This document shows, piece by piece, positions 36,275 to 64,000 of a stretch of DNA of 64,000 nucleotides; positions within the stretch are counted from its first letter, which is position 1, and every line of letters begins with the position of its first letter. The position numbers and the translations under genes were made by a program. The notes beneath the pieces are model-generated. The model searched no databases. It was not told the origin of the DNA and saw only the letters and a list, made by a program, of their open reading frames with translations. This DNA comes from Chrysiogenia bacterium (GTDB taxonomy: Bacteria > JAGRBM01): positions 1,246 to 65,245 of the forward strand of contig JAGRBM010000286.1 of the NCBI GenBank assembly GCA_020434085.1, read 5' to 3'.

Positions 36275-36284
36275 AGGGGGTCTC

Positions 36285-40348: not shown

Positions 40349-40371
40349 GCGACTTACGTGGGGATTATTTC

Positions 40372-41568: not shown

Positions 41569-41576
41569 GCGGACGA

Positions 41577-41978: not shown

Positions 41979-41992
41979 TCAGAGGATATCCC

Positions 41993-43411: not shown

Positions 43412-43486
43412 CTCATGATACTCCGGCTGGGACCGCCGGGAGTTTGACCATGAATACCAAGCGAACATGCAGGGAGATATAGGCCG

Positions 43487-45524: not shown

Positions 45525-45758
45525 TCAAGAGCGTGACCGGTATCCGGCCCAGATACTCGGGCCCGCGCTTTGCATCTCGAATGCATAGCGAATACTGCCC
45601 TTGAGCGTCAAGACAAAACCATCCCCCACCGATCCCTCCGATCAGCGGCAGGGCGCGATTCCAAGATCGATGATCCCATTGGTTACGTGTGCCAACGAGC
45701 CCATCGGCCTGAAGTAGCGGGAATTCGATCTTGAAAGCCGATTGCCGAATCGGCACTA

Positions 45759-45796
45759 TTGATCAACTTAAATTGATTGATGTGTACGGGTATCAA
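45759..45796. promoter_or_regulatory. Cluster of TTGAT/ATCAA inverted and direct repeats (candidate operator array)
   Basis: TTGATCAActtaaaTTGATTGATgtgtacgggtATCAA, AT-rich in a GC-rich genome, upstream of the acyltransferase gene. Confidence 0.3.
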
Positions 45797-46023
45797 CAGT
45801 CTTTCAATTGGGCCTCTCGGTATCGTCCATCGTCGGTGCATTTTGTGCCGCGTGCCAGTGGAACGGTGCCTCAAATGCCTGCGGTCGCGCACGACCTAAC
45901 CGATGAACGGAAGGGCCGTCCGGGGCGAAATCTACAAGGAAGCGGCCATCTCGCAGCGGTTTCCCGGGGGCAATATGACGGCGTTTGACAAAATTCGCCG
46001 AAGCTTATGGCGGTCACCGGTCC

Positions 46024-47466: not shown

Positions 47467-47477
47467 ACACGCTTAGT

Positions 47478-48536: not shown

Positions 48537-48547
48537 GTTGTATCGCC

Positions 48548-49045
48548 CTACGCGGCTGATCTACGGTCAATGTATTGTTGGGTCAAATCGGCTTCCCGGT
48601 CATACATGCCAGCCATGCGGGCCATGTAGAATCGCTCGACGGCTCGCCCCACCAGCCGGACTTCACACTCAAACGATCCCTTGAAACGCCGTATCGTCCC
48701 GCCCCGTCCGTCTGGCTCGTAGAGGGTTTTGCCGTTTAGTTTTCCGATCCGGGCTTCCCCCGAAACCGTCTCAATCATCGTCTCCTTATCGAGAACGTAA
48801 TTCATCTCAAAATAGGGTTCGCGATGCTTGAGGGCCCGTTCGATCCAGGCGGGCAAGTGCAGGTCCGGGTAAACTCGAACAATTTTGCGCCGCTGGGTTG
48901 GAGAGTCTTCGTAAACGAGGCGGTCAGATTGGCGAATTGTTCCCAGGTGCTCAATCAGATATCGGCGAAAGCCGCTATCGTCGATCCAATTGACCAACTC
49001 GATGGGGGGGAGGGGAAAACAGTGTCTGAATTCGAATTCCTGCAT
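48548..49045 (-). CDS. SRPBCC-like (DUF2505-type) protein, paralog of 13323..13820
   Basis: 165 aa; shared motifs with 13323..13820; 4-nt gap to the merR-like gene upstream. Confidence 0.5.
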   Translation of the reverse strand: MQEFEFRHCFPLPPIELVNWIDDSGFRRYLIEHLGTIRQSDRLVYEDSPTQRRKIVRVYPDLHLPAWIERALKHREPYFEMNYVLDKETMIETVSGEARIGKLNGKTLYEPDGRGGTIRRFKGSFECEVRLVGRAVERFYMARMAGMYDREADLTQQYIDRRSAA

Positions 49046-49049
49046 GAAT

Positions 49050-50531
49050 TCATTCCTGCGGCCATGCGCGCTGATAGGCGTATTGGCCGAAATTCGACGC
49101 TGGATCGCGGAGGATCACTTGCTGGAAGGCCTCGTTGGCCTGTTTTTTTTCCCTTTTGAGATCAAAGGCCTCTCCGAGATAAAAGTAGGTATTGACCCGG
49201 TATATCTCGTTGAATCCCTTGAATGGAAGCCCCAGTTGGGCTTCGGTGTGTGTATCGACGATTTCCAGAAGGTCTCTCAGCGCGCCGATTCCCTCGTCTA
49301 CCTGATTGAGAGGCGCCGGAAGAATCGTGTAGGCGCGTCCTTTCATGAGGAGGATTTCAAGACGGTCCTTGAGGCGCCGGGGCGTAAGTCGCAGGCTTTC
49401 CTGGAACAACTGGAGCGATTTATTTAGCCACTGGGCCGGTGAGATGACCCCACCCACCCGCGCGGCCTGCATTAAGTTGGCTATCGCGGCGTAGGCTGTG
49501 GTTCTCGCATCGTGGGGCGCGACTTTGTGCGCTTTGGCGGCCATCTGAACCGCCTCGTCCGTCCGATTAAGAAACGTATCGGCGACGGTTTTGAGTAGCA
49601 TCGCGTCGGAGTCATATTTGTCGTTTTTGAGTATCCGGGTGGCCTGTTCAGCACCCTCTTCGTAGCGCCCGATCGCGAGGTAAGCCTCGGCAAGTCGGAG
49701 CTGCAGATCACGTCTTTGCTTCGCGTCGCCGTCGCGCAGCTGGGTTTCGATCTCTTCAATCTGGGAGGGAATAGCGTGCTTTTCCAAAAATGCTTCACTG
49801 GGGATATAGATCTTCTTTCGCAGTTTTTCGACAGACAGCGGGCCTTCTTCATATGCGCGCTCGAAATGCAGCCGAAGAGCTCGTGTCTTCGCGGCTTCCA
49901 AAAATCGGTTAATGAGTGAATCGATTTCCCCCAACCGTCCCACTACTTCCCGGAAACTGGCGTCCCCGTCAATGGTGTGAATGAGGGCCTTGGATTCCTT
50001 GGTAACGACGGCTTCGATCGGGTTGAGAAGGTCAACGAAGAATTCGACGGGCAGTCCCTTGCTGTGAGCGGTCGAAACGATCCACGCGATTTTCCGTTCT
50101 TCGCCGGAGAGCGGCCCTTCGATGGCGCTGATGAGCCCGGCCTCCGCAAGGTATTTCTGCAAGTCCTCTGGTATTTCAACTTCGGCCGCGGGCTCCGTCG
50201 CCAGAACACCAACGCTGGGCGGAAGAAACCCTTTCCCCTCGGTTGCCCGCTCGAACATGTCAGCCACCAGGCTGAGTTCGAGCGCCTGGGCATCGTAGTT
50301 GCCCTGCTTGAAAAGCTGAGCGATGAAGGCCAGTGGGAGTTTCTTTTCCTTTTGTAGCTTGCGGACGAGTTCGAGAAGCTTGAGATGGTTTTCGTCGTAA
50401 AGGGCCAGTTTTTCGCGTACTTTGCGGGGCGGGGGCAGGATCCCCGCCCGCAAATAGTAGTGGATTGTTTTGCCGGCCACGCCCGCGGCATCTGCCAATT
50501 CTGAAAGTTTAAATTGTTTCTTTTTCGCCAT
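49050..50531 (-). CDS. MerR-family HTH transcriptional regulator fused to a long helical/TPR-like domain
   Basis: N-terminal FKLSELADAAGVAGKTIHYYLRAGIL MerR HTH; 493 aa, with alpha-helical repeats in the rest. Confidence 0.7.
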   Translation of the reverse strand: MAKKKQFKLSELADAAGVAGKTIHYYLRAGILPPPRKVREKLALYDENHLKLLELVRKLQKEKKLPLAFIAQLFKQGNYDAQALELSLVADMFERATEGKGFLPPSVGVLATEPAAEVEIPEDLQKYLAEAGLISAIEGPLSGEERKIAWIVSTAHSKGLPVEFFVDLLNPIEAVVTKESKALIHTIDGDASFREVVGRLGEIDSLINRFLEAAKTRALRLHFERAYEEGPLSVEKLRKKIYIPSEAFLEKHAIPSQIEEIETQLRDGDAKQRRDLQLRLAEAYLAIGRYEEGAEQATRILKNDKYDSDAMLLKTVADTFLNRTDEAVQMAAKAHKVAPHDARTTAYAAIANLMQAARVGGVISPAQWLNKSLQLFQESLRLTPRRLKDRLEILLMKGRAYTILPAPLNQVDEGIGALRDLLEIVDTHTEAQLGLPFKGFNEIYRVNTYFYLGEAFDLKREKKQANEAFQQVILRDPASNFGQYAYQRAWPQE

Positions 50532-50605
50532 GGCCTCAAAAATACCACGAGTTCAAATAGTTATGATGCGCGCCCGGTCCCTTGCCCCGTGCAGTATAAT
50601 CCAGC

Positions 50606-50638
50606 CCTTGACGGCGAATCAAGGATAGTGTTTACTAT
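50606..50638 (+). promoter_or_regulatory. MerR-type promoter: TTGACG -35 and TACTAT -10 with a 19-bp spacer, overlapped by the inverted repeat CCTTGA-N7-TCAAGG
   Basis: Read directly; lies between the divergent merR-like gene and diiron paralog 5. Confidence 0.5.
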
Positions 50639-50714
50639 ATTTGTAGTCGGATGGGCGTTTTCCGGGGTCTTTCCCGGAGTGCCTCAATGGATACGGAGCA
50701 AAGGAGCGACTCTT

Positions 50715-51647
50715 ATGGCGGAGCTAGTTCAAAGAGCAACTCGTGAGCAACTTACCAAGGTGGATGCCAGTGACAACATTTACAAGGTGGACCTGTGGCT
50801 CAAGACGGCACCGCAGGGCTATCTCGTCAAGACCCGTTACGGAAAATACGAGGACCGGCCAATCGAAGAGAATCCCCTCCTTTTTGAAGAAGGGGATCTG
50901 CGGGACCAGCAGCTGATGACCCTCGCTCATTTCGTGGTGGGGGAGCGGGCGGCCCTCCTCTCGGCAGCGGGCTGTATTCCCCGTGAGCCTGACCATGCGG
51001 CGCGGGCGTTTCTCTCGACCCAGACGGCTGATGAGGGGCGGCATGTGGAGGTCTTCTCCCAGCGCCTCTTCGACCTGGGGGTAACCAGGGAACAGTTTGA
51101 GGACTTTCTCGACAGCTGGACCAATCCCTATCTCAAAAAGTTTTGCCTTGCCCTCGAAGACCTCGTCAAGAATGGCGATTACGTCGCTGCCATCGTTTGC
51201 AACAATATCATTCTGGAGGGGCTCGCTTTCAGCGTCTTTGAGTTCTCCCGCGGGATAAGCCAATTCATGGATCCCGTTGGCGAGCAGGTGCTCTGCGGCG
51301 TCATCGCCGACGAGCGTCGGCACGTCGGTTTTGGGGAAAATCATCTTGCAAAACTCGTGGCCCGTTTTCCCGAAAGCAAGCGTAAAATCGAGAATGCCCA
51401 GAAGGAACTGTCCGGGTTCATGATGGCCAGCTTCAAGAGCATGCTCAGCAAGTTTGGATCAGTTATGAATCGGACGATCGGCGAATACAAAGAAGTTCTT
51501 GGCGATTTCGAGCCGTATCCGGGAATCAAGCTTGGTCGCTCGAACTCCGAAGATCTGATGGGCGCAATGTGGACCAAGATGGAGCGGGAGTTCAAAGACC
51601 GTCTCACCCGGATCGGCGTGGATTACCAAGAGCCGTACCAGAATTAG
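50715..51647 (+). CDS. Ferritin-like diiron-carboxylate protein, paralog 5 (310 aa)
   Basis: ATG at 50715 with an AAGGAG RBS; GERAAL...TADEGRHVEVF and EGLAFSV...ADERRHVGFG motifs. Confidence 0.7.
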   Translation: MAELVQRATREQLTKVDASDNIYKVDLWLKTAPQGYLVKTRYGKYEDRPIEENPLLFEEGDLRDQQLMTLAHFVVGERAALLSAAGCIPREPDHAARAFLSTQTADEGRHVEVFSQRLFDLGVTREQFEDFLDSWTNPYLKKFCLALEDLVKNGDYVAAIVCNNIILEGLAFSVFEFSRGISQFMDPVGEQVLCGVIADERRHVGFGENHLAKLVARFPESKRKIENAQKELSGFMMASFKSMLSKFGSVMNRTIGEYKEVLGDFEPYPGIKLGRSNSEDLMGAMWTKMEREFKDRLTRIGVDYQEPYQN

Positions 51648-51708
51648 CCCTTCCTCAACGGATCCGGTCGCCGATGCCCATACATTGCGGATCAAGTGAG
51701 GGTAGAAG

Positions 51709-53781
51709 ATGTCCCAGGATATCAGCACAAAAGCGCGGAGCCACAAGCACCCGCTGAAAATTGCGCCGCCTAAGAAGATCCCTGTCCATGTCGGCGAAGA
51801 CGCCGATGAGACCGTTACCTTGGAAGGCCTGGCCCCCCACGTTGAACTCCCCGAGGGACTGGCGTTCGATAAGTCGAAGTTTGATTCGGTTGGGACGGGA
51901 GCCGGCCATCCCCCCCTGAAGGTGCCTCCGCCGCCAAGGCCCAAGGCCGCCAAGCGTCCGCCCCTGTCTCCCCCGGCTGCCTCACCATCCGCTTCGGACA
52001 CAGCACATGACGGAGAAGAAGAGGTCATCATTGAGCAGCGTCGTCCGAAGGAAAAGAAGGTTGTAGGCGGTCGCCTGCAGAATCCAGACGCACTGGCCCG
52101 GCTGGAACCACCCGATTTCTCCGCAATTCCGCCGGATCCTGAGGTACACGTCCCCTCCAGACTCCGGGCAGATCCGCAGCGGCTCGTGGAAATTGCGCGT
52201 GTGCTATTCCGCCACGGCCTCGGGTTTCCCCTGGAATGCGTCCGGGGCAGGAACTCGCGCAAGGCCCTTGCCCGGCGGTTGCGCCTGGCTTTTGAAGAGC
52301 TGGGTCCGACCTTTATCAAGCTGGGGCAGATGGTGGCGTCGAGTCCCGGAATTTTCCCAAGGGAAGTATCCGATGAATTCCTCAAATGCCTCGATAAGGT
52401 CCCCGCGTTTCGGTTTTCGGAAGTAAAACGCATTCTTGGGGACGAGCTCGGACCCGGTTGGGAGGCCCGATTTCAGAAGATCGAGGCCGTTCCGGTTGCT
52501 GCCGCAAGCATCGCCCAGGTCCACTTCGCCGAATTGGCCGACGGCACGCCTGTCGTCATCAAAGTGCAGCGACCGGGCATTCAAAAGGTCATTGAGCGGG
52601 ATCTCGGAATTCTGTTTTTGCTGGCGAAAGGGCTTGTGCGTGCCTTCGAAAATGCCCATCTGGCCAATCCGGTGGGAATCGTCTCGGATTTCAATCAGAC
52701 GCTGCATGAGGAACTCGACTTCCGACTGGAAGCCAACAGCATGGAGCGGTTCAATGCGGTGTTTTCCTCTGCTGGAGACAAGCGCATCTATGCGGCCCAA
52801 GTGTACCGCGAACTTACCACGAAACGCATCTTGGTGATGGAGCGGCTACATGGCGCCCGGGTGGACGACCTCGATTCGATTCGAAATCTTGGTGTGGACC
52901 CTGAAGACGCTCTCCGCCTCGGAATCAAGGCAGTTCTTCGTACGATGATGTTGCATGGATTTTTCCATGGCGATGTGCATGCGGGCAATCTCCTCATCAC
53001 CGCAGATGCCGGCGTCCATTTCATGGATTTCGGAATCGTCGGCAGGCTCGACGACGAGCGAAGTAAACGCGTCACTCACCTTCTGGTTTCGCTCATGGCG
53101 GGCACTTTCGAGAACCTGGCCGACGTGCTCATGAAGCTGGGTACTACAAATGCAAAGACCGACCGGATTCAGCTGAAGGATGATCTGAAGAACCTGCTGG
53201 GACAGTTCAAGGACACGGCGCTTGGTGCGCTCAACTTCGGAGACCTGCTGACCGCCGTCGTCAAAGCAGCCGTACGGAACCATGTGCGCCTTCCGCGAGA
53301 GTTCGTTCTACTGGTGAAACAGATAGTTTACTTCGACCGCTACGCCCACGTTCTTGCTCCCGATCTGAATATATTCGACGACCGTTTCTTGATCGATTTC
53401 CTGTGGCGTGACCCGCTGGGTCGAAAACGATTTCCGCAGATGCAGATGATCGGCATGCTTGGAAATGTCCGCTCCATCAAGGATCTTCGCAATAATCGCC
53501 GGCGCTCTTTCGACGAGCTTCCGGAGCGGTACAGGGGGAAATACCGATACTGGGATGGCTCTCCCCTTCAGCCCAATGAGCTCCAGTGCGTTGTCTGCAA
53601 CATCATCGTGATTGCCAAACGCCCGTTTCAGGTCGGAGACAGGGTGTTCTGTCAACCCTGCGGCACCAAAATGGTGGTGATCGAGAAGGAAGGAAAACTC
53701 ACGGCCGAACCGATTTATTCCCAAGAAGCGCAGGCATCCTTCCGGATAACAGAGGGTTTGCAGGAATTCGCGCCGATCTGA
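51709..53781 (+). CDS. ABC1/UbiB (Coq8-like) kinase with a Pro-rich N-terminal extension and a C-terminal Cys-rich (zinc-ribbon-like) tail
   Basis: [35 protein letters not shown]1 motifs; C-terminal CVVCN...CQPCG. Confidence 0.8.
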
Positions 53782-53808
53782 GAATTCCATTACTGGGGGA
53801 TTACGGAA

Positions 53809-54684
53809 ATGCTTGATCTGGAATCGCTGCTGGAGAAGTCCCACGCGGGTCAGTGGTCGGTCGCTGATTTCGATTGGGAAACGCCGTTTCCACCGGGGCT
53901 GCCGATCAGTGAGCGCAAGCGCCAGCTGCTGGGAAGAGTCCTGCTTTTCACTGCAGGGGTTGAACGTTTGGGCGCCTACGCATTTCAGATTAACGCCCGG
54001 AACTCGATGCACCCGACCGTCCGGGAGCTCTTCGAGGTCATCGCAAAAGATGAGTTCCGGCACGCGGAGGCTGAGACTCTTCTGGCGAGACGGCTGGGGG
54101 TCGAATGGAAAGATCTGCCGTGGCTCATGCGCCGGGCCTTCAAGGTGCTCTCGCACGACCTGCGGAAACTGAAGGGAGTACGAGGTCGCCTCTTCCACGA
54201 AATCGTGGGGACCCAGATCGTCCTGTTCGAACTTGGACTCGATTCGCTTTGGAGTCCGACGGTCCGGGAGATGATTGACGATCCGTTCCAGAACGAGATT
54301 ATCCGCATGATCGACCGCGATGAATCACGGCATCTGGCCATGGACTACTGGTTGCTCGAACAGAAGGGCACGGGTACTGACCGCACTTCGCTCAATGCGC
54401 GGCGAATTCTAGCCAACCTTCCCTTGCGCCTTTCGTCGGCAGCACTGGGAGCGGGCGCATTCCTGACGTTTTTCTGGAGTGTCCGGAACCTCGAAATCTC
54501 ACCCGAACGATTTGATGACTACTGGACTCGCGTACAGGCAATCGTCGACAAATCGCCGCACGCGCGCAGATTTCCGCCGCATCGCACGACGGTGGGTCTG
54601 ATAGACGCACTTGTGAACTTTTTCGACGGAAATAAGGCAGCATTCAAGGGATTTATGCTTCTGGTGACAGGACGAAATATTTAG
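53809..54684 (+). CDS. Ferritin-like diiron-carboxylate protein, paralog 6 (291 aa; group A)
   Basis: GQWSVADFDW; AKDEFRHAEAE; DRDESRHLAMDYWLL. Confidence 0.7.
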   Translation: MLDLESLLEKSHAGQWSVADFDWETPFPPGLPISERKRQLLGRVLLFTAGVERLGAYAFQINARNSMHPTVRELFEVIAKDEFRHAEAETLLARRLGVEWKDLPWLMRRAFKVLSHDLRKLKGVRGRLFHEIVGTQIVLFELGLDSLWSPTVREMIDDPFQNEIIRMIDRDESRHLAMDYWLLEQKGTGTDRTSLNARRILANLPLRLSSAALGAGAFLTFFWSVRNLEISPERFDDYWTRVQAIVDKSPHARRFPPHRTTVGLIDALVNFFDGNKAAFKGFMLLVTGRNI

Positions 54685-54693
54685 ACGGAGGAA

Positions 54694-55431
54694 TTGTCCA
54701 TGCGTACCGACAGCGATCTTTACGCGATCAGGCCCGGGCAGGCGCTCGATGCCGCCATAAAGGGAATGAAAAATCCTGATGATACCAAGCAGGCTGCGCG
54801 GATGGTTGAGGCATTGCAGGGAAGATCTCCTCTGCGCATGCTTCAGCGCGTCAAGCGCAGCAGCAAGGGGCGCCGCCTGCTGCAGGAAAGGCCCGATCTG
54901 CTCTCGGCGCTCAAGGACGCCAAGTGGTTGGCTTCCCTGCCCGAGGGTACCTTGGGCCGTGAGTATTACGAGTTTTGCCAGCGCGAGCAGCTCACCCCCG
55001 GAGGACTGGATGAAGCCGTGGCCGAGGGGTTTGATCGTTCACGTCTGGAGCGCATGAGCGAGGACGAGCAGTTTCTGCAGACGTGGATGCGTGATACGCA
55101 CGACCTCTACCACGTGTTGACAGGTTACGGAACCGATCTGCTCGGAGAATTGGGCGTCCTGACCTTTACCGCGACACAGACCAGGAATCCGGCAATCTGG
55201 TTCATGGTGCTCGTAGGTGGAACGGTGTTTGCGGCCAGAGGGCATGCGAACCCGAGGCTGTTTGCGGGCGCAATCTGGCGGGGGCTCCGCGCGCGCTCGA
55301 TCATCACGCCGAATTGGAAGAGGCTTCTTGAACAGCCCTTGTCGCAGATTCGCCGGGAACTGCGCGTCCCCCAGCCCCCGCGATACAAACCGGCCTACAC
55401 AAGCCTGGACCGGTCGGCGATGCAGCTATAG
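54694..55431 (+). CDS. Coq4-family protein (ubiquinone-biosynthesis Coq4-like)
   Basis: HDLYHVLTGYGTDLLGE matches the Coq4 zinc motif HDxxH-x11-E. Confidence 0.65.
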   Translation: MSMRTDSDLYAIRPGQALDAAIKGMKNPDDTKQAARMVEALQGRSPLRMLQRVKRSSKGRRLLQERPDLLSALKDAKWLASLPEGTLGREYYEFCQREQLTPGGLDEAVAEGFDRSRLERMSEDEQFLQTWMRDTHDLYHVLTGYGTDLLGELGVLTFTATQTRNPAIWFMVLVGGTVFAARGHANPRLFAGAIWRGLRARSIITPNWKRLLEQPLSQIRRELRVPQPPRYKPAYTSLDRSAMQL

Positions 55432-55434
55432 CCG

Positions 55435-56699
55435 TTGGTGGAAGGGGGACTCATGCCGCCATTTAATCCGCTCGTCGTATTCACTAAAAATGATCGCTTT
55501 GCCGAATACCGGCGGGCGAGGGCCGAATGTCCGGTGAGTCAGTCACGGCTTCTACCGATGTGGAACGTGATGTGCTACGACGATTGTGTGCGCGTGCTCA
55601 GAGACCCCGAACATTTTGCTTCCAGTCCGCGTGTTGCATTCGAGCGAAAGGCGCAAGGTGCCAAGGGCCTGACCGGGGCGCTCGATATGGCACAGGTGTT
55701 CGAATTACTGCCGCCGATGATGCAGCACATGATGGTGGCGACCGCCCCCCCGATCACCAGCGCTTGCGTTCACTCGTTACAAAGGCATTTACGCCCCGCA
55801 TGATCACGCAGCTCGAACCCAGAATCTCTGAACTGTCCGACGAACTGTTCGATGAGATCGAGAAGAAAGATAAGTTCGACCTAATGGAGGATTTTGCCAT
55901 TCCGCTTCCCATCTACGTGATCGCGGAGATTCTGGGAATCGATCCCCACATGTGCCATCAATTCAAGGACTGGTCGAACAAGATGGTGCTCGACCCGACA
56001 GCAAATATTTTCCTGAATGCCGGCAAGCCGATGGATATGGATTGGCTTGAAGAGTTTACAGACTATTTCGGTCGCCTCTTCGAGGAGCGACGCAAGCGGC
56101 CGATGGGAGATCTGATCAGTCAGCTGGTGAAGCTTGAAGATGCCGGGGATCGGCTGTCCGGTGACGAACTTCTTGCCATGTGCGGCATTCTTCTGGTCGC
56201 GGGGAACGAAACTACAACCAATTGGCTCGGCAATGCGCTTGTTGCTCTGACGGAGTCCCCAGAAGCTTTGAGGGAGCTTGAGCAGGATCCCTCGCTGATC
56301 CCCTGTGCGATGGAAGAAGTCCTCCGGTTTTACTCGCCGGTGCAGTGCCTGTTTCGATTTGCGAAAGAAGGCGCGAAGATCGGTGACCGTGAGATCCCGC
56401 CGGGCGAGGGCGTGCTGGTCTGGATTCAGTCGGCGCACCGGGACGAGGCGGTTTTCGATCAGCCTGATTCGTTCGACATCCACCGCGATCCCAATCCTCA
56501 TATCGCATTCGGCAGCGGCATCCATTTTTGTCTGGGCGCCCCGCTTGCGCGACTGGAAGCGAAGATCGGGATGGAGAAACTGCTTGGCAGACTGCCCGGC
56601 ATCGTGCGTGCGAGTGAAAACCCGGTACGATATCGCAAATCGATCATGCTTTATGGGCCCGACCGCGTGGACCTCGCCTCCAAGCAAAGAGCAGCGTAG
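55435..56699 (+). pseudogene. Cytochrome P450 interrupted by a -1/+1 frameshift at a C7 homopolymer (55745..55751)
   Basis: The N-terminal 100 aa (PPFNPLV...MMQHMMV) sit in frame 1 and the rest in frame 3: DPPDHQRLRSLV, I-helix AGNETT, EEVLRF, heme loop FGSGIHFCLGAPLA. Adding one C restores a continuous P450. Confidence 0.75.
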
Positions 56700-56897
56700 A
56701 AAGACTTCGGCTTTCTCTGCGTTATTCCACTTGCTGCGCGAGCCTGCGGCAAATTGCGTGCGATTGATGCGGAAAGGTGATTGAGGAATGCGCGTACCGA
56801 ACAAGTTCCGGCAGTTCCCTGCACGGTCGGCTTATTTGAGGCCTCGTCCGGCCATCGCACAATTTCTCCCGACCGCCATTGTCTCAGATTTTCAACC

Positions 56898-58262
56898 TCA
56901 AAAACTCCAGCGCATTTCCGCGAACGCCGTCGTATTGTCTTCCAGAAAGCCGAATTGGGAGATGTTTTCGCCCTTGTAGATTTCTCCGCCGACCGTGGCC
57001 TTCCATTCATCCGTCAGGTCATAGGTCAGTTTGGGCCGGAGAAACCAGTTGGTTCTCTCGAAGTTGATGACATAGGTCAGATCGAGGTCGAGAGTATCGT
57101 TCCACCACTTCTTGTTGAATCGCACGGATACACCGTTTTGCCATGTGTCCAACTGACTTGTGAACAAGGCGTTGTATTGGGCCAACTGATCATCCGGGCG
57201 CCCCAACACCGTCTCGTACTTATGGAACACCCTTCTTCCATAGTACTGGACGATCAGGTTGGTGCTGTTCCCAAAGTCCTTTTCAATGCCAAGAACATAA
57301 AAAGCGTAGGGGGTTTGGATGTCCCTGCGCCGGCCTTTGGAATTCTTCGTATGAACGTACGCACCTTCCCCCCGAAACCCCCAGCTCCCGTGGATATACA
57401 CGAAATCCGCTCCCGCACCGTGTATACGGTGGTGCGAAAGTTCGACAACCGTCACCGGCGGAGGCGGGACGATCAGATTTACTTCCGGCAGTTTGTTGAA
57501 GCCCGTAAAATAGCTCACGGACCACTCAATATCTCCGCCGGACTGGTCCAGTTTGAAACCGAACTCGCCGTTTTCGATTTCCACATCCGGAGGCTGCTGC
57601 TGAAAGGATATTCCAGGAACCGAGGGAAGCGGAATCACGCTGGCTGTTGGCACCGGCTGCCAGACGCCTGTCACGCGGAAGCCCTTGGGAAGATAGTAGT
57701 CGGCTTTGACGCCGAAGACGCCGATTCGCTGATCGAAAGGGTCCGGAAAGAGAAGCGTCAGATTTCTCGCCGAGAGCCAGTCGGTGGGATTGATCTCATC
57801 GGCACGGCCCCAAACAATGATCTGCTTTCCGACCCGGAGTTCCAGGTCCCCGGCATAGACGTCGACATAGCCCTCGCGCAACTCCAACGTGACCTCTTCG
57901 TAGAGAGTCTGCGTTCGCCCATCCCAATGGTTTGGCGTGGTTGAGTGATTCAGGTCTTGCGCCATCACCCGAGCCTCGCCATAGAGCCTGACGTGATCGC
58001 CAAATCCGGGCTCCGACCTAAGAACAAGATTGAGGCCGGGAAAATGCCGATTCTTGGTTAGGGATTTGTCCGAACTAAAATAATCAAAAGCCGCATAACC
58101 GTGGATCCCTGCTTGCTTGACGGGGTTCCATAGTTTCATGAACGGGGTTTCACGGCCCTCTGGAATCGGACCCGGGCCGTCCTCTGCCGCTGCGGCGGTC
58201 GGGAGGGAGGCAAGAATGATTCCAAGAAAGAGCAGATTGCGAAAATGAAACGTCGTCCGCAT
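56898..58262 (-). CDS. Outer-membrane beta-barrel protein (DUF1302-like?) in the exporter operon
   Basis: Signal peptide MRTTFHFRNLLFLGIILASLPTAAAA; C-terminal ...EMRWSF; ATG at 58262 is 4 nt after the upstream stop. Confidence 0.55.
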   Translation of the reverse strand: MRTTFHFRNLLFLGIILASLPTAAAAEDGPGPIPEGRETPFMKLWNPVKQAGIHGYAAFDYFSSDKSLTKNRHFPGLNLVLRSEPGFGDHVRLYGEARVMAQDLNHSTTPNHWDGRTQTLYEEVTLELREGYVDVYAGDLELRVGKQIIVWGRADEINPTDWLSARNLTLLFPDPFDQRIGVFGVKADYYLPKGFRVTGVWQPVPTASVIPLPSVPGISFQQQPPDVEIENGEFGFKLDQSGGDIEWSVSYFTGFNKLPEVNLIVPPPPVTVVELSHHRIHGAGADFVYIHGSWGFRGEGAYVHTKNSKGRRRDIQTPYAFYVLGIEKDFGNSTNLIVQYYGRRVFHKYETVLGRPDDQLAQYNALFTSQLDTWQNGVSVRFNKKWWNDTLDLDLTYVINFERTNWFLRPKLTYDLTDEWKATVGGEIYKGENISQFGFLEDNTTAFAEMRWSF

Positions 58263-58266
58263 GTTT

Positions 58267-59106
58267 CTAGCGCTTGAGATAACGTTCGCTGAACGTGTAT
58301 TCCGGGACGCCCACATTTACCTTGATCTCATCGAAAGAAATTTCCGTGACTCCTCCTGTCTGCAAATTTTTCATTCGAAGCGACTTCGCCATCCAGCGAC
58401 CGAGCTTGGGGTCCGCCTCGAAAAGGTCGCTCGCGCCAAACTCTTTCAGAGGGCGCCCTGCAAGGTCGGCGTATTCACCTTTAACGGTCATGTAATTGTC
58501 AGTCCGGATCCACTGGATTTTCTTCCCGTAGCCGGTGTTGCGTTTTACTTCTTCCGACACAGGAGTGGACTCGACCACGTAACAATTGTGCTCGCCACAC
58601 GGCTCGGTCTTCACAAGCGTGTGATTCCAGTCCTCCACCCGCGGGGTGATCACGTCTCCGTAGGAGAAGTCCGATCCCATGAAACTGTCCCGCTTGTTCG
58701 ACGCTACCAGCCTCCGGACCTTTTTGAGGGCTGGAAGGTAAACCCAGATATCGTCGTCTCCTCCCGAGTGTTCCCGGGTCAGGGTCGCCGTGCCGCGCAC
58801 GTCCGGAGGGCTCAGGAATTTCGCCACGCGCTCCTGGTCGATCCCGTTGGGAAGGAGTCTGGAGAAGGACTCGGCTTTGCGCTCGCGCCGGATCCCCCTC
58901 GAATCAATGAGTACCATGGTCATTCTGGACTCGGAATCGGTGAGCTTTCCGACCATGAAGTTCTTCTTCATGATCTCGATGACGTCGGGTGGCCCGGCGC
59001 TTTCGACAGCTTCCTCCCCATGAGCCGGAAGACTCATGGAAACGGCAAACCCAATGCCGAGGACAATCATTACCGTTCTAAAATTATGCATTGCATACCT
59101 CCTCAT
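58267..59106 (-). CDS. LolA-like outer-membrane lipoprotein-sorting family protein
   Basis: Signal peptide; 279 aa; LolA-like fold signature (DIWVYLPALKKVRRL); GGAGG RBS before the ATG at 59106. Confidence 0.55.
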   Translation of the reverse strand: MRRYAMHNFRTVMIVLGIGFAVSMSLPAHGEEAVESAGPPDVIEIMKKNFMVGKLTDSESRMTMVLIDSRGIRRERKAESFSRLLPNGIDQERVAKFLSPPDVRGTATLTREHSGGDDDIWVYLPALKKVRRLVASNKRDSFMGSDFSYGDVITPRVEDWNHTLVKTEPCGEHNCYVVESTPVSEEVKRNTGYGKKIQWIRTDNYMTVKGEYADLAGRPLKEFGASDLFEADPKLGRWMAKSLRMKNLQTGGVTEISFDEIKVNVGVPEYTFSERYLKR

Positions 59107-59124
59107 AGCAGCAAGACCTCCGGT

Positions 59125-61470
59125 TTATTGGTCCTTCTGCGGTTTCAGAAAAAATGCCTTCGGCCGCACGTGTTTGATCAATGCCGGGAGAACCGTGATC
59201 GCTCCCAGGGAACTGATGACCATCGCCAACGCCACCAGAAGGCCCAATTTCCGGTGGAACCCAAACGGTGAGAGCGCCAGGCAGAGATAACCCGCGGTAA
59301 TCGCGCTGGACACAAAAAATACCGCCTTGCCCGAAGTGCGCATGGTGGTGAGCAGAGCTTCGTCGAAATTCTGATTCTTGCGGAGTTCCTCCTTAAGACG
59401 GAAGATAAAATAAAGGGCGTAATCAGCACCGATTCCCACAGCCATGGGCAGGATGGCCGAAGTTCCTATATCCAGATTGGCGCGGAAAAATCCCAGGGCC
59501 GCAAACTCCCCGAATACTGAAAGGATGAGCGGGACGGTTACAAGCAGGCCCGCGACGAGTGAACGCAGGACAAGCGAAGCCAGAACAACCACTATGAGCC
59601 AGATCTGGACGATGTTGCGGATCTTGCCTTCCACCATGACGTGGTTGAGCGCGTCGGCCGAGGCCACCGAGCCGGCGATCTTGACCTCATAGCCGGGCGG
59701 AAAATGCTTGGGGATGTAATCCCGTACTTTTCGAATGATCTCGTCAGCGACTGCCGTGTTGTCCTTCTTCATGAAGGTCTGGATGATCGCCTTATCATAG
59801 GTTTTGGTCACGTACGCATCAAAATCATCCGGTCCCCCGGAGATGGAATACAGAAAAAGGTATTGGGCAATGAGTTCCTGCGAGTCGGGAATTCTCTCGA
59901 ATTCGGGATCATCGGCATTCATCGCTTTGTTCATTTTCTTGAGGAAATCGACGATGGAGAGCGTCTTGCCGACGGCTTCCTGTTCTCCAAGGAGATCCTG
60001 CAGGCCCTCCATGCTCCTGAGAACTTCGGGGTTCTTGAGTTTATCTGGTTCCTTGCCGTCGATGACGAAGAGAAGATTGTTGGTTCCCGCAAACCGGTCA
60101 TTCAGCCAGGTGTCGTCTTGGTAAAACTGGTCCTTGGGGCTGAAATAGGGCTTGAGGCTGTTGTCTATCTTTACCATGGACGTGCCGTAGCCCCATGCGC
60201 CGAGGGCCACCACCGTCGCTCCAATGATGGCTTTGCTGCCGGAACCGCTTACATAGGGTGCAAGCCATTCGAGCGCCCCGTCGAGATATTTTCTTTCGAC
60301 CGACTCGGCCTGCGCCTCCTTTTGCTTCGGTGCGGGCAGCATCGCCCGCAGGGCCGGAATCATCGTCATTTCGATGACCAGGACCGAAAGAATGCCGAAA
60401 CCGGTGAAGAGCCCAAACGTGCGGATGGTCGTGGTCTGGAAGGTCATGAGCGAAAAAAAGGCGAGCGCGGCGATAATGCCCGTGGTCAGCATGACGGTTC
60501 CCACCTTGACGGTAGACTCGATCACCGCCTTGCGATTGTCCTGATAAACGGCATATTCCTCGTAATAGCGCTTGAGTATCTGAACGGCGTGCCCGGCTCC
60601 CACGGCCAGGATCAGAATGGGCGTGGTGGCGTTGAAGGGATCGAGAGCGACGCCCACGATCCCCATCAAGCCAAGTCCCCACACGACCGCCAGCAGGGCC
60701 GTCAACAACGGAAGAAACAACCCCTGGAGAGTGCGGAATGCCTCGAAATGAACAAGCCCGATAACGATGACGGCAATGATAAAATAGATGGCCATTCGTT
60801 CCGAGTATTTCGCCATCCACGATGCGGCCACTGGGAAACCCGAATAATGAATTTCTACCGAGTCATCCAGCTCGCTCTGCACGATTTCTTCAACCACCTT
60901 ATGGATCGAGGGAAAATCAGGCAGCTCCCGATTGAAGCGGAAATCGGCCAGAATCGCGGCCGTCTTCCCGTCCTTGGAATAGATCGAATTGGCAAACAGC
61001 GGATTCCGAAAGAGCTTATCCTTGAGTTCCTGCATCTCCCGTTCGGTAGCCGGCACTGTTTCCATGAACGGAGTCACAATCATCCCGTCTTCGGTCCCCA
61101 GAATATCCTTTGCCCGATTTGCGGAGATGGAAAGAACGTTGGCCCGGATGATTCCGGGAACCAGAAGTAGTTTGTCGGTAATTTGTTGGATTTTCTCAAG
61201 AACAATGGGCTGAAAAATATCGCCCTGCTTCGGTGCGATTCCAATCACTACAATGTTTTTCCCGCCAAAAATATCGTCGATTTCGTTTTGGGCCTGGATG
61301 TACGGGTGGCCCTGGGGAAGATTTTTGTCCGGGTCTACTTCGACATGGAGATTCCCGAGATTTGCACCCAGATAGACCGAAATCACGCCCAATATGACCA
61401 TCACTGCAACGCGATACCGGACAATCGCCTCAACATAGGATCGCAACATTATTGGTGCTCCTTTTTCCAA
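59125..61470 (-). CDS. RND-superfamily MMPL-type exporter
   Basis: 781 aa; two 6-TM bundles with large periplasmic loops; typical MMPL/RND-exporter layout. Confidence 0.85.
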   Translation of the reverse strand: MEKGAPIMLRSYVEAIVRYRVAVMVILGVISVYLGANLGNLHVEVDPDKNLPQGHPYIQAQNEIDDIFGGKNIVVIGIAPKQGDIFQPIVLEKIQQITDKLLLVPGIIRANVLSISANRAKDILGTEDGMIVTPFMETVPATEREMQELKDKLFRNPLFANSIYSKDGKTAAILADFRFNRELPDFPSIHKVVEEIVQSELDDSVEIHYSGFPVAASWMAKYSERMAIYFIIAVIVIGLVHFEAFRTLQGLFLPLLTALLAVVWGLGLMGIVGVALDPFNATTPILILAVGAGHAVQILKRYYEEYAVYQDNRKAVIESTVKVGTVMLTTGIIAALAFFSLMTFQTTTIRTFGLFTGFGILSVLVIEMTMIPALRAMLPAPKQKEAQAESVERKYLDGALEWLAPYVSGSGSKAIIGATVVALGAWGYGTSMVKIDNSLKPYFSPKDQFYQDDTWLNDRFAGTNNLLFVIDGKEPDKLKNPEVLRSMEGLQDLLGEQEAVGKTLSIVDFLKKMNKAMNADDPEFERIPDSQELIAQYLFLYSISGGPDDFDAYVTKTYDKAIIQTFMKKDNTAVADEIIRKVRDYIPKHFPPGYEVKIAGSVASADALNHVMVEGKIRNIVQIWLIVVVLASLVLRSLVAGLLVTVPLILSVFGEFAALGFFRANLDIGTSAILPMAVGIGADYALYFIFRLKEELRKNQNFDEALLTTMRTSGKAVFFVSSAITAGYLCLALSPFGFHRKLGLLVALAMVISSLGAITVLPALIKHVRPKAFFLKPQKDQ

Positions 61471-61485
61471 TTCCGTATTCGCTCA

Positions 61486-62112
61486 TTAGTGATCGGGGAG
61501 TGGGGATCCGCAGAAAAGCCGGAGTGTTGTTTCTACGAGAACATCAACGGGGCGTGGCTCAGGCCGCTGAACCTCCATGGTCAGGAGCGCATTCAGAATC
61601 CCGCTGAGCTTGAGCGCCAACTCTTCACCCGTAGCCCCCACAAACTCGCCCGATGCCAGGCCGCTCTCAAAGGTCTCTACGAGCCCGGTCTGGTAACGAT
61701 GGTACTTCGCCAGTACGCCCCGCCCGAACTGCGCCTGGAGGCGCATTTCAAAGCCGAGAGTCTCATTGACGAAGAGTTTCAGTAGCAGGGGGTTCTCCTC
61801 AAAATAGGAGAGTTGTTCACGGACTGCATTCTCAATCCTTTGCCGGGCCCCGTCCGCCCCCCCCAACGCGGCCTCTACCCGGTCCAGGAGTTCGGCGAGG
61901 TGCTGGTCAAGCATTTCCTGATAAAGCGCTTCCTTGCTTGAGAAATGGAGATAGAGCTTTCCTACGGAAAACTCGGCCGATTGGGCTACGTCCCGCATGG
62001 TGGCCGTGTGGAAGCCCTTTTCAACGAAAACCTGCATGGCGGCATTCAGTATGTCCCTGCGGTGGCGGGCTTCCTCGGCTTCCTGACGCGCTTTGCTGGC
62101 ATAGCGAGGCAT
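61486..62112 (-). CDS. TetR/AcrR-family transcriptional regulator
   Basis: N-terminal HTH RRDILNAAMQVFVEKGFHTATMRDVAQSAEFSVGKLYLHF; 15 nt upstream of the MMPL gene. Confidence 0.85.
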   Translation of the reverse strand: MPRYASKARQEAEEARHRRDILNAAMQVFVEKGFHTATMRDVAQSAEFSVGKLYLHFSSKEALYQEMLDQHLAELLDRVEAALGGADGARQRIENAVREQLSYFEENPLLLKLFVNETLGFEMRLQAQFGRGVLAKYHRYQTGLVETFESGLASGEFVGATGEELALKLSGILNALLTMEVQRPEPRPVDVLVETTLRLFCGSPLPDH

Positions 62113-63087
62113 TCGTCAATATTATGAACATTGATTCATCATGTCAATAGGTATTCATATTAGCGAAACCTTCGGCTAGGATGGAAGGAGCCATAGCCAA
62201 GTTATTGGAGTTACATGCAAATTCCGCTACCGTTCGAATTTCGGTCGATCAGACATATCAATCAAGCAAACCTGAGGGCTCCGCGCAGGAGATGACCGCG
62301 CGTGAAACCTCTTCGCGAGTGAGCTCTCGGACCGCAGCCGGGCGACTTGTCCGGGTTCGCGCTGCTCGAACCGAACCCGAGCCGTTCCGAGCCGACGTTC
62401 GAACCGAATGGGCCGCACGCGGACCGCGCACGAGCGGGCGGAAAATTTTACCAGGCCGCGCGCGTTCCGATCCCGCATTTCCCAGCGCCGCGCCCGAGTG
62501 GCACCCGAAATCCCTCGTGCGGCAAGCGCTCCGCACGCGTACCGGAGGTTCTAGCACTCCAGCGCACCTCGCCGGGCCCCGTCGTGGTGGACGAAATGAG
62601 TTCGGAGGGGGCAAATCCCATTCCGGCAAGGGAACTGTGCAAGCGCGGTTCGCACAATGTTTAGCACGGTGCAAGGCCGAGCATTCCGGTTCGCGACGCA
62701 CATGCGGTGAGAACCCGAACCCGGCATGGCTGGAAGGTGTTACCTATGTTAGGGATCGGACAACAGTCCACCACAGGGCCACCACGGAAGTGCCTAATTT
62801 TATTGAAAGATTAGCGAAGTGGTGGAGATGGTGGAGCTAGACGTGACGCGCCGGCGCGAAATTTAGCGGCAGGGAAGCACGCGCGTACAAACTACCGTTT
62901 TCCACGTGAGCCCACGCAAGGGATATTTTTGTTCACCCCCGCGCGGCGCATTCTTGGGGCATGGCTACCCCGCTCCCAGTGCCGCAGTTCGAATTCTCGC
63001 GCGAAGAGATCGCCGCGCTGGCGGAGGTTTTCGCGCTGCTGCTAGAATGGGACGCGGAGGAGCGGGCGCACAAGCCCGCACAAAGCC

Positions 63088-64000
63088 ATGAACAACCAAT
63101 CCCTGAGTGCGACTGATCTTCCTTCCTGGCTCGGCGCGAGCCGCAGGGCCGTGGGCATCGTCCGCGTCTCTTCCCACAAGCAAGGCGACGGGAATTCCCC
63201 CGATGTGCAACGCGCGGGAATCGAGCGCTACGCCACGAGTCTTGGACTTGATCTGACCGGCATTGAGATCATTGAGGAATCGGCGAAGAGCTCATCAAGC
63301 CGGAAGAAATTCCACGAGGCCATGGCTCGCGCCAGACGAAAGCGCGTCCGGCACCTCGTCTTCTGGGTCTGGGACCGCATCGCCCGAAACTATACCGACG
63401 TCGAGAAGCTTGAGGAACAGGTCCGCGACGATCTCTTCGTCCTGCACGTCGCCAACGAGCGGCGCGTACTTCACGCGCTCAGCACCGATTCCGAGTGGCT
63501 GACAGCCGATGTGAACACGCTCACGAGCAAACACTATTCGAGAGAGCTTCGACGCCGGGCCATCGAGAGCATGGCCGAGAAGGCCCGGGCCGGGTGGTTC
63601 CCCATGAAGGCACCGCTCGGATATCGCAATGCCAAGGCTCGCACCGCCGGAGGCGGGATCAAGGACCGCGGCGGCACCATCGAGACGGTTCCCGAGCAGA
63701 AAGCACTCGTCCGCCGCATGGCGGCGCTACGGATCGATGGCTACAGCCTCGACCGGATTGCGACAAAGGTGCTCGAAGAAGGCCTCGTGCCCCGCTCCCA
63801 TGAACGGGGTTTCAAAGGCCCCGGCGCGGTTTCCAGGGTCGAGAGCATCCTCAAGAATCCCTTTTACCGGGGCGAGTTTCTCTGGCGCGGCGACGTCTAC
63901 GAAGGAAGGCACGAAGCCTTCTTCACCCAGTCCGAATGGGAAGCCCTGCAGGCGACATTCGGGACAATCCCGGCGCATACCAAGCGCACCCGCCATTCCG
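63088..64000 (+). CDS. Large serine recombinase (partial; continues past the window end)
   Basis: Hand translation of frame 1 gives VGIVRVSSHKQ (catalytic Ser), VFWVWDRIARN, GWFPMKAPLGYR, ILKNPFYRGEF, which are resolvase plus recombinase-domain hallmarks; no stop before 64000. Confidence 0.75.
   Translation, partial: MNNQSLSATDLPSWLGASRRAVGIVRVSSHKQGDGNSPDVQRAGIERYATSLGLDLTGIEIIEESAKSSSSRKKFHEAMARARRKRVRHLVFWVWDRIARNYTDVEKLEEQVRDDLFVLHVANERRVLHALSTDSEWLTADVNTLTSKHYSRELRRRAIESMAEKARAGWFPMKAPLGYRNAKARTAGGGIKDRGGTIETVPEQKALVRRMAALRIDGYSLDRIATKVLEEGLVPRSHERGFKGPGAVSRVESILKNPFYRGEFLWRGDVYEGRHEAFFTQSEWEALQATFGTIPAHTKRTRHS

What the first reader, a model, noticed from the sequence alone, without database searches (positions are those of the whole stretch)
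62113..64000. Island boundary: repeat-dense non-coding gap followed by a large serine recombinase
After the TetR gene there is a roughly 975-bp stretch without a convincing ORF. It is packed with short direct and inverted repeats: TCGAACCGAA at 62366 and 62399; tandem CCGAGCCG-tt-CCGAGCCG at 62377-62394; and GGTTCG/CGAACC inversions. It is followed by a gene for a large serine recombinase (63088 onward; catalytic VRVSS, recombinase-domain motifs). Together with the roughly 1-kb low-GC gap at 18954-19988, this suggests that the 20-62 kb lipid-oxidation island is, or once was, a mobile integrative element. The repeats are candidate attachment or iteron sites.
Basis: partly seen in the sequence, partly recalled or inferred. 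Interest (0 to 1): 0.5.

Follow-up and report, generated by a model that had tools for sequence, protein, structure and literature searches.

The report
Serine-integrase island inserted at tRNA

Summary
The large serine recombinase (LSR) at 63088 onward is real, and so is the 975-nt gap before it. The repeats in the gap are ordinary and are not conserved in a relative about 90% identical. The gap has four parts: a TetR promoter, a 570-nt conserved non-coding block of unknown role, a variable spacer, and a conserved 51-aa gene coupled to the LSR.

The island idea holds, with different boundaries. Public contigs 100% identical to 19367-63739 all break or diverge at 19366. There sits TGGCGCGCCCGG, the reverse complement of the last 12 nt of tRNA-Arg(TCT). 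In the relative, that tRNA overlaps the orthologous LSR's stop codon.

In 8 of 10 related loci the LSR gene runs convergently into a tRNA gene at its CCA end. Of 158 clade representatives, 74 end in an antisense-tRNA peptide. At least 16 end in a conserved alternative tail, which is exactly what window 19366-19419 encodes. So attP lies inside the LSR gene, and integration swaps its C-terminus.

The closest precedent is DsiB of the Dehalococcoides ssrA islands. I call this a new variant of a known kind. The right-hand junction lies outside the window and is inferred.

The parts
19366..19377 (.). attL core TGGCGCGCCCGG, the displaced 3'-terminal fragment (acceptor strand plus CCA, reverse complement) of tRNA-Arg(TCT)
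   Evidence: It occurs once in the 64 kb. Three different sequences adjoin exactly here in the window, L012 and L014, and contigs L013, L015 and the 43,621-bp contig behind L001 end here. It is identical to the first 12 nt of the reverse-complemented tRNA-Arg(TCT) that overlaps the orthologous LSR in L017.
19366..19419 (+). Detached 3' end of the LSR reading frame (P' arm of attP). It encodes W-RARVEEFRTAVREMAA-stop, the conserved native C-terminal tail of this LSR clade.
   Evidence: The same tail motif ends at least 16 clade representatives, and it ends the LSRs of the tRNA-less, phage-like contigs L035 and L036. Equivalent remnants lie upstream of integrated LSRs in L023 and L024. F-R-T is kept with different codons, so the constraint is on the protein.
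19420..61485 (.). Island cargo at about 55% GC: Baeyer-Villiger/FMO-type monooxygenases, acyl-CoA dehydrogenases, thiolase, acyl-CoA ligase, SDR, aldehyde dehydrogenase, P450, aldehyde-decarbonylase-like protein, UbiB/ABC1 kinases, Coq4, MerR, histidine kinase, and the DUF1302/DUF1329/MMPL exporter set
   Evidence: Pfam hits; GC profile. No relaxase, type IV secretion or phage structural genes were seen.
61486..62112 (-). TetR-family regulator, first gene of the TetR-MMPL-DUF1329-DUF1302 operon (cargo)
   Evidence: PF00440, 1e-16
62113..62150 (-). TetR promoter (TTGACA-17-TAATAT) and AT-rich candidate operator
   Evidence: Promoter scan at 62147-62119, 10 of 12 matches; conserved in L017
62181..62748 (.). 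Conserved non-coding block of unknown function
   Evidence: Divergence from L017 is 5.5%, against 16-20% at third codon positions of the neighbouring genes and 26% in the next 212 nt. There is no 3-nt periodicity and no conserved ORF. No Rfam family reaches threshold. Folding z-score is about 0 on both strands. No match in plasmids or phages.
62749..62960 (.). Variable spacer where the more diverged integration module begins
   Evidence: 26% divergence plus a 41-nt indel against L017
62961..63116 (+). Conserved 51-aa ORF overlapping the LSR start by 29 nt; candidate accessory or directionality factor
   Evidence: Homologous small ORFs with the core [DE]x[LI]xxLxEVFxxLLxW[DNQ]xE lie immediately upstream of, or overlap, the LSR start in L017, L018, L021, L023, L024, L025, L035 and L036. 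Divergence by codon position is 0.135/0.096/0.327. No Pfam or PHROG family.
63088..64000 (+). Large serine recombinase, first 304 of about 532 codons; it runs off the window
   Evidence: Pfam Resolvase plus Recombinase; phrog_95 'integrase', 2e-40; 100% identical to NCBI MCB0219995.1 (P0038; 521 aa, partial, ends ...GEWRA at the end of a 65,896-bp MAG contig).

Best explanation
Window 19366 to about 64641 (about 45.3 kb) is a genomic island integrated into the 3' (CCA) end of a tRNA-Arg gene by the LSR encoded at its tRNA-proximal end (63088 onward).

In this LSR clade, attP lies inside the recombinase gene's own 3' coding end. On the free element the gene ends in a conserved helical tail of about 16 aa (W-R-x-x-V-E-E-F-R-T...AA). 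After integration, the gene is cut at the Trp codon TGG, which is the complement of the tRNA's CCA. It then reads on into the antisense strand of the tRNA, giving tails such as ...EW-RARRDSNPQPTA. The native tail is left at the far end of the island, here at 19366-19419.

The flagged 975-nt gap is the region between cargo and integration module. It holds a TetR promoter, a constrained non-coding block that belongs with the cargo, a variable spacer, and a small conserved gene translationally coupled to the LSR.

Shown: the junction polymorphism at 19366, the tRNA-derived 12-mer, the clade-wide overlap of LSR and tRNA genes, and the two tail classes. Inferred: the right junction of this island (outside the window), the crossover lying within the 12-mer, current mobility, and any regulatory meaning of the tail swap.
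For: 1. Public contigs from several samples are 100% identical to the window over 19367-63739. At 19366 the window, L012 and L014 each continue differently, and three other contigs end there.
2. The 12-mer at 19366 is unique in the window. [quoted passage not shown]
3. The window's LSR protein (P0038) ends '...GEWRA' exactly at its contig end, which is consistent with TGG-CGC-GCC.
4. In 8 of 10 related loci with readable downstream DNA, a convergent tRNA (Arg-TCT, Arg-ACG, Arg-CCT, Glu, His) overlaps the LSR's 3' end, and the ORF always enters at TGG = CCA.
5. In the census of 158 clade representatives, 74 carry the antisense-tRNA signature W....[DEGN][SL]N in the last 45 aa, against 0.003 expected per 45 aa elsewhere in the same proteins. 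In 43 of them the W sits exactly 15 aa after the KKPF motif. At least 16 carry the alternative FRT tail.
6. LSRs with the FRT tail (P0012, P0014) sit in tRNA-less, phage-like contigs.
7. The model predicts a tail remnant at the far end of each integrated element. This was found in L023 (a 5.5-kb element with Rep_trans and an HTH_17 Xis-like gene; 8-nt direct repeat) and in L024 (two remnants; an element with Bro-N and an OLD-family nuclease).
8. AlphaFold models the native tail of P0012 as a confident helix (residues 502-518, pLDDT about 90).
9. Left of 19366 the window carries core genes at about 63% GC (Lgt, FolE2, MCP, porin). Right of the tRNA, L017 has Lnt and similar genes at 61-65% GC. 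The segment between them is about 55% GC.
Against: - The right junction and the tRNA are not in the window, and the exact LSR could not be retrieved with its flank.
- No empty attB and no circular attP junction of this island were found. The only porin homologue with context is too diverged to help.
- The LSR/orf51 module differs from the cargo in GC (63% vs 55%) and in synonymous divergence from L017 (0.31 vs 0.16-0.20), so module and cargo have different histories.
- The three left-hand contexts could arise from neighbouring elements (an LSR element in L012, a tyrosine-integrase element in L014) coming and going while this island stays put.
- No recombination activity has been tested.
Confidence: 0.85

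Rival explanations
1. The island was delivered by the LSR but is now a fixed, immobile remnant. The polymorphism at 19366 reflects other elements (an LSR element and a tyrosine-integrase element) integrating and excising next to it in a tandem array at the same tRNA.
For: L012 and L014 carry other recombinase genes reading into the junction. No attP circle or empty site was found. The integrated LSR lacks its conserved native tail.
Against: New arrivals at a tRNA attB should insert next to the tRNA body, so the elements to the left would be older than the island. The island is 100% identical across at least six sequencing runs over tens of kb, which suggests recent spread. In L012 the neighbour's LSR regains a native-like tail from this island's left end, so arrays could stay active.
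Confidence: 0.25
2. The recombinase belongs to a separate element or prophage downstream of the window and has nothing to do with the 20-62 kb segment.
For: The LSR region has higher GC and deeper divergence than the cargo. L025 shares only the LSR gene body with the window.
Against: In L017 the LSR is followed at once by the tRNA and ordinary chromosomal genes, with no phage genes. In every integrated relative the element lies upstream of the LSR. The matching detached tail of the gene sits at 19366, the other end of the low-GC segment. No relatives were found in viral contigs.
Confidence: 0.04
3. The short direct and inverted repeats at 62.3-62.7 kb are attachment sites or iterons.
For: There is a modest excess of 8- and 9-mer direct repeats over shuffles. 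The surrounding 570 nt are under constraint.
Against: The counts are within the range of other tiles. The named repeats are broken in L017. There is no tandem array. Contigs cross the region colinearly with no junction. The true att core is elsewhere.
Confidence: 0.03
4. The junction at 19366 is a metagenome mis-assembly that joins two organisms of different GC content.
For: The window's left flank (porin P0040) is on record only on the source contig. The GC step coincides with the junction.
Against: Only 12 nt are shared between the alternative contexts, which is too short for an assembler to bridge. The break falls exactly at the CCA end of a tRNA-derived fragment, as expected for a genuine attL.
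Confidence: 0.03

Closest known systems
DsiB serine integrase and ssrA-specific genomic islands of Dehalococcoides (McMurdie et al. 2011, PMC3146451; read)
   Same: A serine recombinase of about 540 aa sits at the island edge. Its 3' end always overlaps the att repeat and reads into the target RNA gene or an adjacent island. The islands carry metabolic cargo, form tandem arrays and have no transfer genes. The authors already speculated that the gene is complete only on the circular element or behind another island.
   Different: The target here is a true tRNA gene (Arg; Glu and His in relatives), not the tmRNA gene. The DsiA, RecF-like, ParB and Mom module genes are absent, and a conserved ~50-aa ORF is coupled to the LSR instead. 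A conserved alternative tail is documented here. Sequence relatedness to DsiB was not tested.
tRNA-targeting genomic islands and prophages with tyrosine integrases (Islander signature; PMC4383910, PMC7192596)
   Same: The island lies between an intact tRNA gene and a displaced 3' fragment. The integrase gene is next to the tRNA. The composition is foreign, and islands occur in tandem arrays at the same tRNA.
   Different: The enzyme is a serine recombinase, not a tyrosine recombinase. The direct repeat is only 7-12 nt. [quoted passage not shown]
Myxophage Mx8 IntP/IntX, and SSV-type archaeal integrases (cited from my own knowledge, not checked here)
   Same: attP lies inside the integrase coding sequence, so integration into a tRNA gene rewrites or splits the integrase's C-terminal part.
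   Different: Those are tyrosine recombinases. Here only about 16 C-terminal residues of a serine integrase are exchanged.
Characterised large serine integrases (A118/LI, phiC31, Bxb1, CcrB)
   Same: Domain order: catalytic domain, recombinase domain, zinc ribbon, coiled coil. The closest solved structure is the A118 integrase C-terminal domain (E about 1e-6). Small RDFs are known for some of these (my own knowledge).
   Different: Their attB sites lie in protein-coding genes or intergenic DNA, and attP is outside the integrase gene. Identity to any isolated phage or plasmid LSR is 27% or less.

Membership tests
Large serine recombinase (serine integrase) | N-terminal resolvase-type catalytic domain with a serine nucleophile | tested here: met
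   PF00239, 2.3e-17, residues 21-169; 'GIVRVSS'; R27 and S29 invariant in the clade alignment
Large serine recombinase (serine integrase) | Recombinase domain followed by a zinc ribbon and a coiled coil | tested here: met
   PF07508, 1.3e-12, in the window. The rest lies beyond the window but is in the same protein, P0038: a CxxC...C motif. The long coiled-coil helices are seen in the model of the homologue P0012. PF13408 hits occur in relatives.
Large serine recombinase (serine integrase) | Catalyses attP x attB recombination | not testable with these tools
   Needs an in vitro or in vivo assay
tRNA-gene-integrated genomic island | Displaced tRNA 3' fragment at the integrase-distal end | tested here: met
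   12 nt at 19366-19377, identical to the tRNA-Arg(TCT) 3' end of L017 and unique in the window
tRNA-gene-integrated genomic island | Intact tRNA gene at the integrase-proximal end | tested here: inconclusive
   It lies outside the window. It is inferred from the protein tail '...EWRA' at the contig end and from the orthologous L017 locus.
tRNA-gene-integrated genomic island | Occupancy polymorphism (empty site or different neighbours in related genomes) | tested here: inconclusive
   Three different left neighbours were found, but no empty attB.
tRNA-gene-integrated genomic island | Composition distinct from the flanks | tested here: met
   55% against 61-66% GC
DsiB-type ssrA genomic island | The serine integrase gene's 3' end overlaps the att repeat and the target RNA gene | tested here: met
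DsiB-type ssrA genomic island | The target is the tmRNA gene ssrA | tested here: not met
   ARAGORN calls tRNA-Arg, tRNA-Glu and tRNA-His, and no tmRNA
DsiB-type ssrA genomic island | Six-gene integration module (DsiA small serine recombinase, RecF-like, ParB, Mom, large protein) | tested here: not met
   Upstream of the LSR the window has only orf51, non-coding DNA and TetR
DsiB-type ssrA genomic island | Sequence homology of the LSR to DsiB beyond the general LSR fold | not tested
Prophage | Phage structural, packaging or lysis genes within the element | tested here: not met
   No phage structural, packaging or lysis family appears among the Pfam hits for the island's genes. No relatives in viral contigs.
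Integrative conjugative element | Relaxase, coupling protein and type IV secretion genes | tested here: not met
   No relaxase, coupling-protein or type IV secretion family appears among the Pfam hits for the island's genes

The most novel reading that the evidence does not exclude
This LSR clade may be a widespread, so far uncharacterised class of serine integrases that target the CCA end of tRNA genes. In it, recombination itself rewrites the enzyme: a native C-terminal helix on the free element, an antisense-tRNA peptide in the integrated state. That would act as a built-in directionality or lock switch. The translationally coupled ~50-aa protein may be its partner or RDF, and tandem arrays may re-arm an upstream integrase by lending it the next island's tail.
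Probability: 0.3. Interest if true: 0.8.

Novelty: new variant of a known kind. Interest (0 to 1): 0.6.

Why it matters
Textbook and database practice treats tRNA genes as targets of tyrosine integrases. Islander restricts itself to tyrosine integrases, and the 2020 TIGER survey called its 14 serine cases unproven.

Here one window leads to a large, environmentally widespread LSR clade. Its members are recognisable from protein sequence alone, by an antisense-tRNA C-terminal peptide. That gives exact att sites for dozens of uncultured elements.

This yields a simple rule for delimiting such islands: the LSR-tRNA overlap at one end and a 'W..V[DE][DE]FRT' ORF fragment at the other. It also offers a natural experiment on what an LSR's C-terminal tail does. 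And it provides candidate integrases whose attB sites are highly conserved tRNA ends, which is of practical interest for genome engineering.

For this genome, it shows that a 45-kb lipid- and hydrocarbon-oxidation gene set was acquired horizontally.

Tried and rejected
- tRNA and Rfam scans of the window found nothing at threshold. A permissive Rfam scan of the gap gave only a sub-threshold BjrC68 hit (23 bits against a gathering score of 39).
- Tandem-repeat search: none.
- Search for direct repeats between the two gaps (18.5-20.2 kb against 62-64 kb): nothing of 11 nt or more. The right-hand copy lies beyond 64000.
- Structured-RNA reading of the conserved block: folding z-score about 0 on both strands. 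Two-sequence alifold was equally good on both strands, so uninformative.
- Coding reading of the block: every ORF is broken or has more nonsynonymous than synonymous changes, except a weak 48-aa case. The 219-aa ORF has no homologues and no Pfam hit.
- oriT or phage origin for the block: no similarity in PLSDB or INPHARED, nor in any other fetched locus.
- Empty-site search via the flanking porin: the exact protein occurs only on the source contig, and the 79% homologue's contig (L026) is not syntenic.
- Retrieving the source contig's end via P0038 failed.
- The genome-contig scan did not contain the source genome.
- LSR-mediated inversion as an explanation for the 45915-56844 inversion relative to L017: no convincing inverted repeats or paralogue at the breakpoints.

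Full report
**What is at the coordinates.** TetR (61486-62112, minus strand) and an MMPL exporter operon lie to the left. From 63088 a plus-strand gene encodes Resolvase plus Recombinase domains with the catalytic GIVRVSS. It runs off the window after 304 codons. It is 100% identical to NCBI MCB0219995.1. That protein is a partial 521-aa 'recombinase family protein' on a 65,896-bp 'Chrysiogenetes bacterium' MAG contig, and it ends ...GEWRA at the contig end. Full-length relatives are about 532 aa. The closest solved structure is the A118 serine integrase C-terminal domain, and PHROGs files the protein as an integrase.

**The repeats.** The decamer pair and the CCGAGCCG pair exist, but there is no tandem array. 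Repeats of 10 nt or more, and inverted repeats, are at shuffle level. The excess of direct 8- and 9-mers is matched by 2-5 of 64 other tiles of the window. In the best relative (L017, SRR19361205, about 90% nucleotide identity, same TetR-gap-LSR order) those very repeats are broken. They are not attachment sites or iterons.

**Anatomy of the gap.**
- 62113-62150 holds a good sigma-70 promoter for TetR.
- 62181-62748 is non-coding but constrained. It diverges 5.5% from L017, against 16-20% at third codon positions of neighbouring genes and 26% plus a 41-nt indel in 62749-62960. It shows no codon periodicity, and every ORF in it is broken or changes mostly nonsynonymously.
- I could not assign this block a function. 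It has no Rfam family, no folding signal on either strand, no similarity to plasmids, phages or any other fetched locus, and no protein homologues.
- The block travels with the cargo, not with the integrase module. L025 has a 92%-identical LSR with unrelated upstream DNA.
- 62961-63116 is a real 51-aa gene that overlaps the LSR start. Homologues with the core [DE]x[LI]xxLxEVFxxLLxW[DNQ]xE sit in the same position in every clade locus examined.

**The island and its true left end.** GC is about 63% at 1-19 kb, about 55% at 19.4-62 kb and 59-63% afterwards. Exact-protein look-ups returned contigs from several runs that are 100% identical to the window between 19367 and 63739 and cross TetR-gap-LSR colinearly. 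On the left, every contig either stops at 19367/19368 or diverges there. One of them is 43,621 bp and spans 19367-62987.
- The window continues into ordinary chromosomal genes: porin, MCP, FolE2, Lgt.
- L012 continues into the 3' part of a different LSR gene.
- L014 continues into a tyrosine integrase gene. Both recombinase genes read toward the junction.
- The shared sequence starts with TGGCGCGCCCGG (19366-19377), which occurs once in the window.

**Why that 12-mer matters.** In L017 the LSR's last 42 nt overlap, convergently, a tRNA-Arg(TCT) gene. The reverse complement of that tRNA's 3' end begins TGGCGCGCCCGG. So 19366-19377 is a displaced tRNA 3' fragment (attL). The partner copy is predicted at the Trp-519 codon of the window's LSR, at about 64642, which fits the ...EWRA contig end. 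That makes the island about 45.3 kb long. Right of the tRNA, L017 carries NUDIX, PilZ, glycosyltransferases and Lnt at 61-65% GC, not phage genes.

**Generality.** Of 10 related loci with readable downstream DNA, 8 have a convergent tRNA overlapping the LSR stop (L017, L018/L022, L021, L023, L024, L025, L027, L028). The targets are Arg-TCT, Arg-ACG, Arg-CCT, Glu-TTC and His-GTG. The ORF always enters the tRNA at TGG = CCA. Because the T-loop is near-universal, the antisense translation is recognisable as W-x4-[DE]-S-N. A profile search of 1.84 billion representatives gave 147 top hits. Together with 11 earlier proteins:
- 74 of 158 carry this signature in the last 45 aa, against 0.003 expected per 45 aa elsewhere in the same proteins;
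- in 43 of them the W lies exactly 15 aa after the KKPF motif;
- a further 14 end W-G-G-stop or similar, as at the tRNA-His locus.

**The other tail.** At least 16 representatives instead end W[RC]xx[VL][DE][DE]F[RL]T...AA-stop. Window 19366-19419 encodes exactly such a peptide, in the LSR's orientation: W-RARVEEFRTAVREMAA-stop.
- Two such proteins (P0012, P0014) lie in tRNA-less, phage-like contigs carrying ParB, an M15 peptidase, large structural ORFs, DUF5131 and a methylase. I read these as the un-integrated attP form.
- The model predicts a tail remnant at the far end of each integrated element, and this is met. L023 has one 5.5 kb upstream of its tRNA-Glu junction. It bounds a small element with Rep_trans, an HTH_17 Xis-like gene, the small ORF and the LSR, and the direct repeat is 8 nt.
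- L024 has two remnants, bounding an element with Bro-N and an OLD-family nuclease.
- F-R-T is kept with different codons (TTT/TTC; AGA/CGG/CGA), so the constraint is on the protein.
- AlphaFold models the tail of P0012 as a confident helix.
- In L012 the neighbouring LSR acquires this island's tail, as expected in a tandem array.

**Mechanism.** attP lies inside the LSR gene. Integration at a tRNA CCA end exchanges a conserved C-terminal helix for an antisense-tRNA peptide and leaves a repeat of 7-12 nt, short as expected for serine recombinases. Whether the swap locks the element, changes directionality or is neutral is inference. So is a role for the 51-aa protein as an accessory or directionality factor.

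[quoted passage not shown] The TIGER survey (2020) found 14 of 297 serine-integrase elements at t(m)RNA genes and asked for experimental proof. The closest precedent is McMurdie et al. 2011. [quoted passage not shown] The present case shares that architecture, but it targets true tRNA genes, lacks the DsiA/RecF/ParB/Mom module and has a different coupled small ORF. It also shows that the alternative tail is conserved. No isolated phage or plasmid carries a close relative; identity is 27% or less. I therefore rate it a new variant of a known kind.

**Limits.** The right junction is outside the window, and I could not retrieve it. No empty site or circle junction was found. The integrase module and the cargo have different GC and divergence, so the element is mosaic. 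The left-junction polymorphism could reflect the mobility of neighbouring elements rather than of this island.

Noticed in passing
window 45915-56844 (breakpoints 45914/45915 and 56844/56845): Relative to the related contig L017, this 10.9-kb segment (MerR, DUF2505, metallo-beta-lactamase, histidine kinase, aldehyde-decarbonylase-like protein, UbiB, Coq4, P450) is inverted. Only a weak 38-nt, 74% inverted repeat lies near the breakpoints, and there is no paralogue there.
   Followed up: partly
window 45915-49618 against 56845-64000: Identity to L017 is mosaic: 98.1% in the first block and 89.7% in the second. Synonymous divergence in orf51 and the LSR (0.31-0.33) is about twice that of the cargo genes (0.16-0.20). 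This points to recombination between island lineages.
   Followed up: partly
window 63088-64000 and beyond (P0038 against P0002 in L025): The window's LSR and a second LSR from the same community (ERZ23498357) differ only within residues 1-296. They are identical from residue 297 to 520, yet they sit in unrelated contexts next to different tRNA-Arg genes whose 3' ends differ by 1 nt in the first 12. This looks like recent recombination between integrase genes.
   Followed up: partly
window 62181-62748: A 570-nt non-coding block evolves 3-4 times more slowly than neighbouring synonymous sites. It has no Rfam family, no folding signal and no homologues outside this island lineage. Its function is unexplained.
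   Followed up: yes
window 62594-62662 (+): A sub-threshold Rfam match to the Bradyrhizobiaceae sRNA BjrC68 (23 bits against a gathering score of 39; E = 0.003) lies inside the conserved block. It is probably chance.
   Followed up: no
L014 8953-10368 and L012 12457-13381: At the same tRNA-derived site, other metagenome contigs carry a P4-like tyrosine integrase element (L014) or a different LSR element (L012) directly left of the island. These are tandem islands at one tRNA, using two unrelated recombinase families.
   Followed up: partly
P0039 (96%-identical LSR, ENA contig of 2,371 bp): Its first 43 residues are replaced by a sequence that resembles a transposase helix-turn-helix (…YGVSRPTAYKWIERY…). 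This suggests an IS insertion or a chimeric join in the 5' end of that LSR copy.
   Followed up: no
L024 1080 and 2166: Two successive native-tail remnants (WGGHIDDFRTACQQFSMAA and WGEYIDDFRTACQQFSIAA) lie upstream of one tRNA-His-linked LSR. This implies a decayed 1.1-kb element remnant beside a 9.3-kb element that carries an OLD-family nuclease.
   Followed up: partly
L030 and L031 (38%-identical LSR): These LSRs stop early (...RYELKKP-stop), before the usual tail, and have no tRNA downstream. They are exceptions to the clade rule and are unexplained.
   Followed up: no
window 41993-43411, 50514-55431: The island carries two UbiB/ABC1 atypical kinases, a Coq4-family protein and an aldehyde-decarbonylase-like di-iron protein next to a P450. 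This is an unusual quinone- or hydrocarbon-related set for a horizontally acquired island.
   Followed up: no
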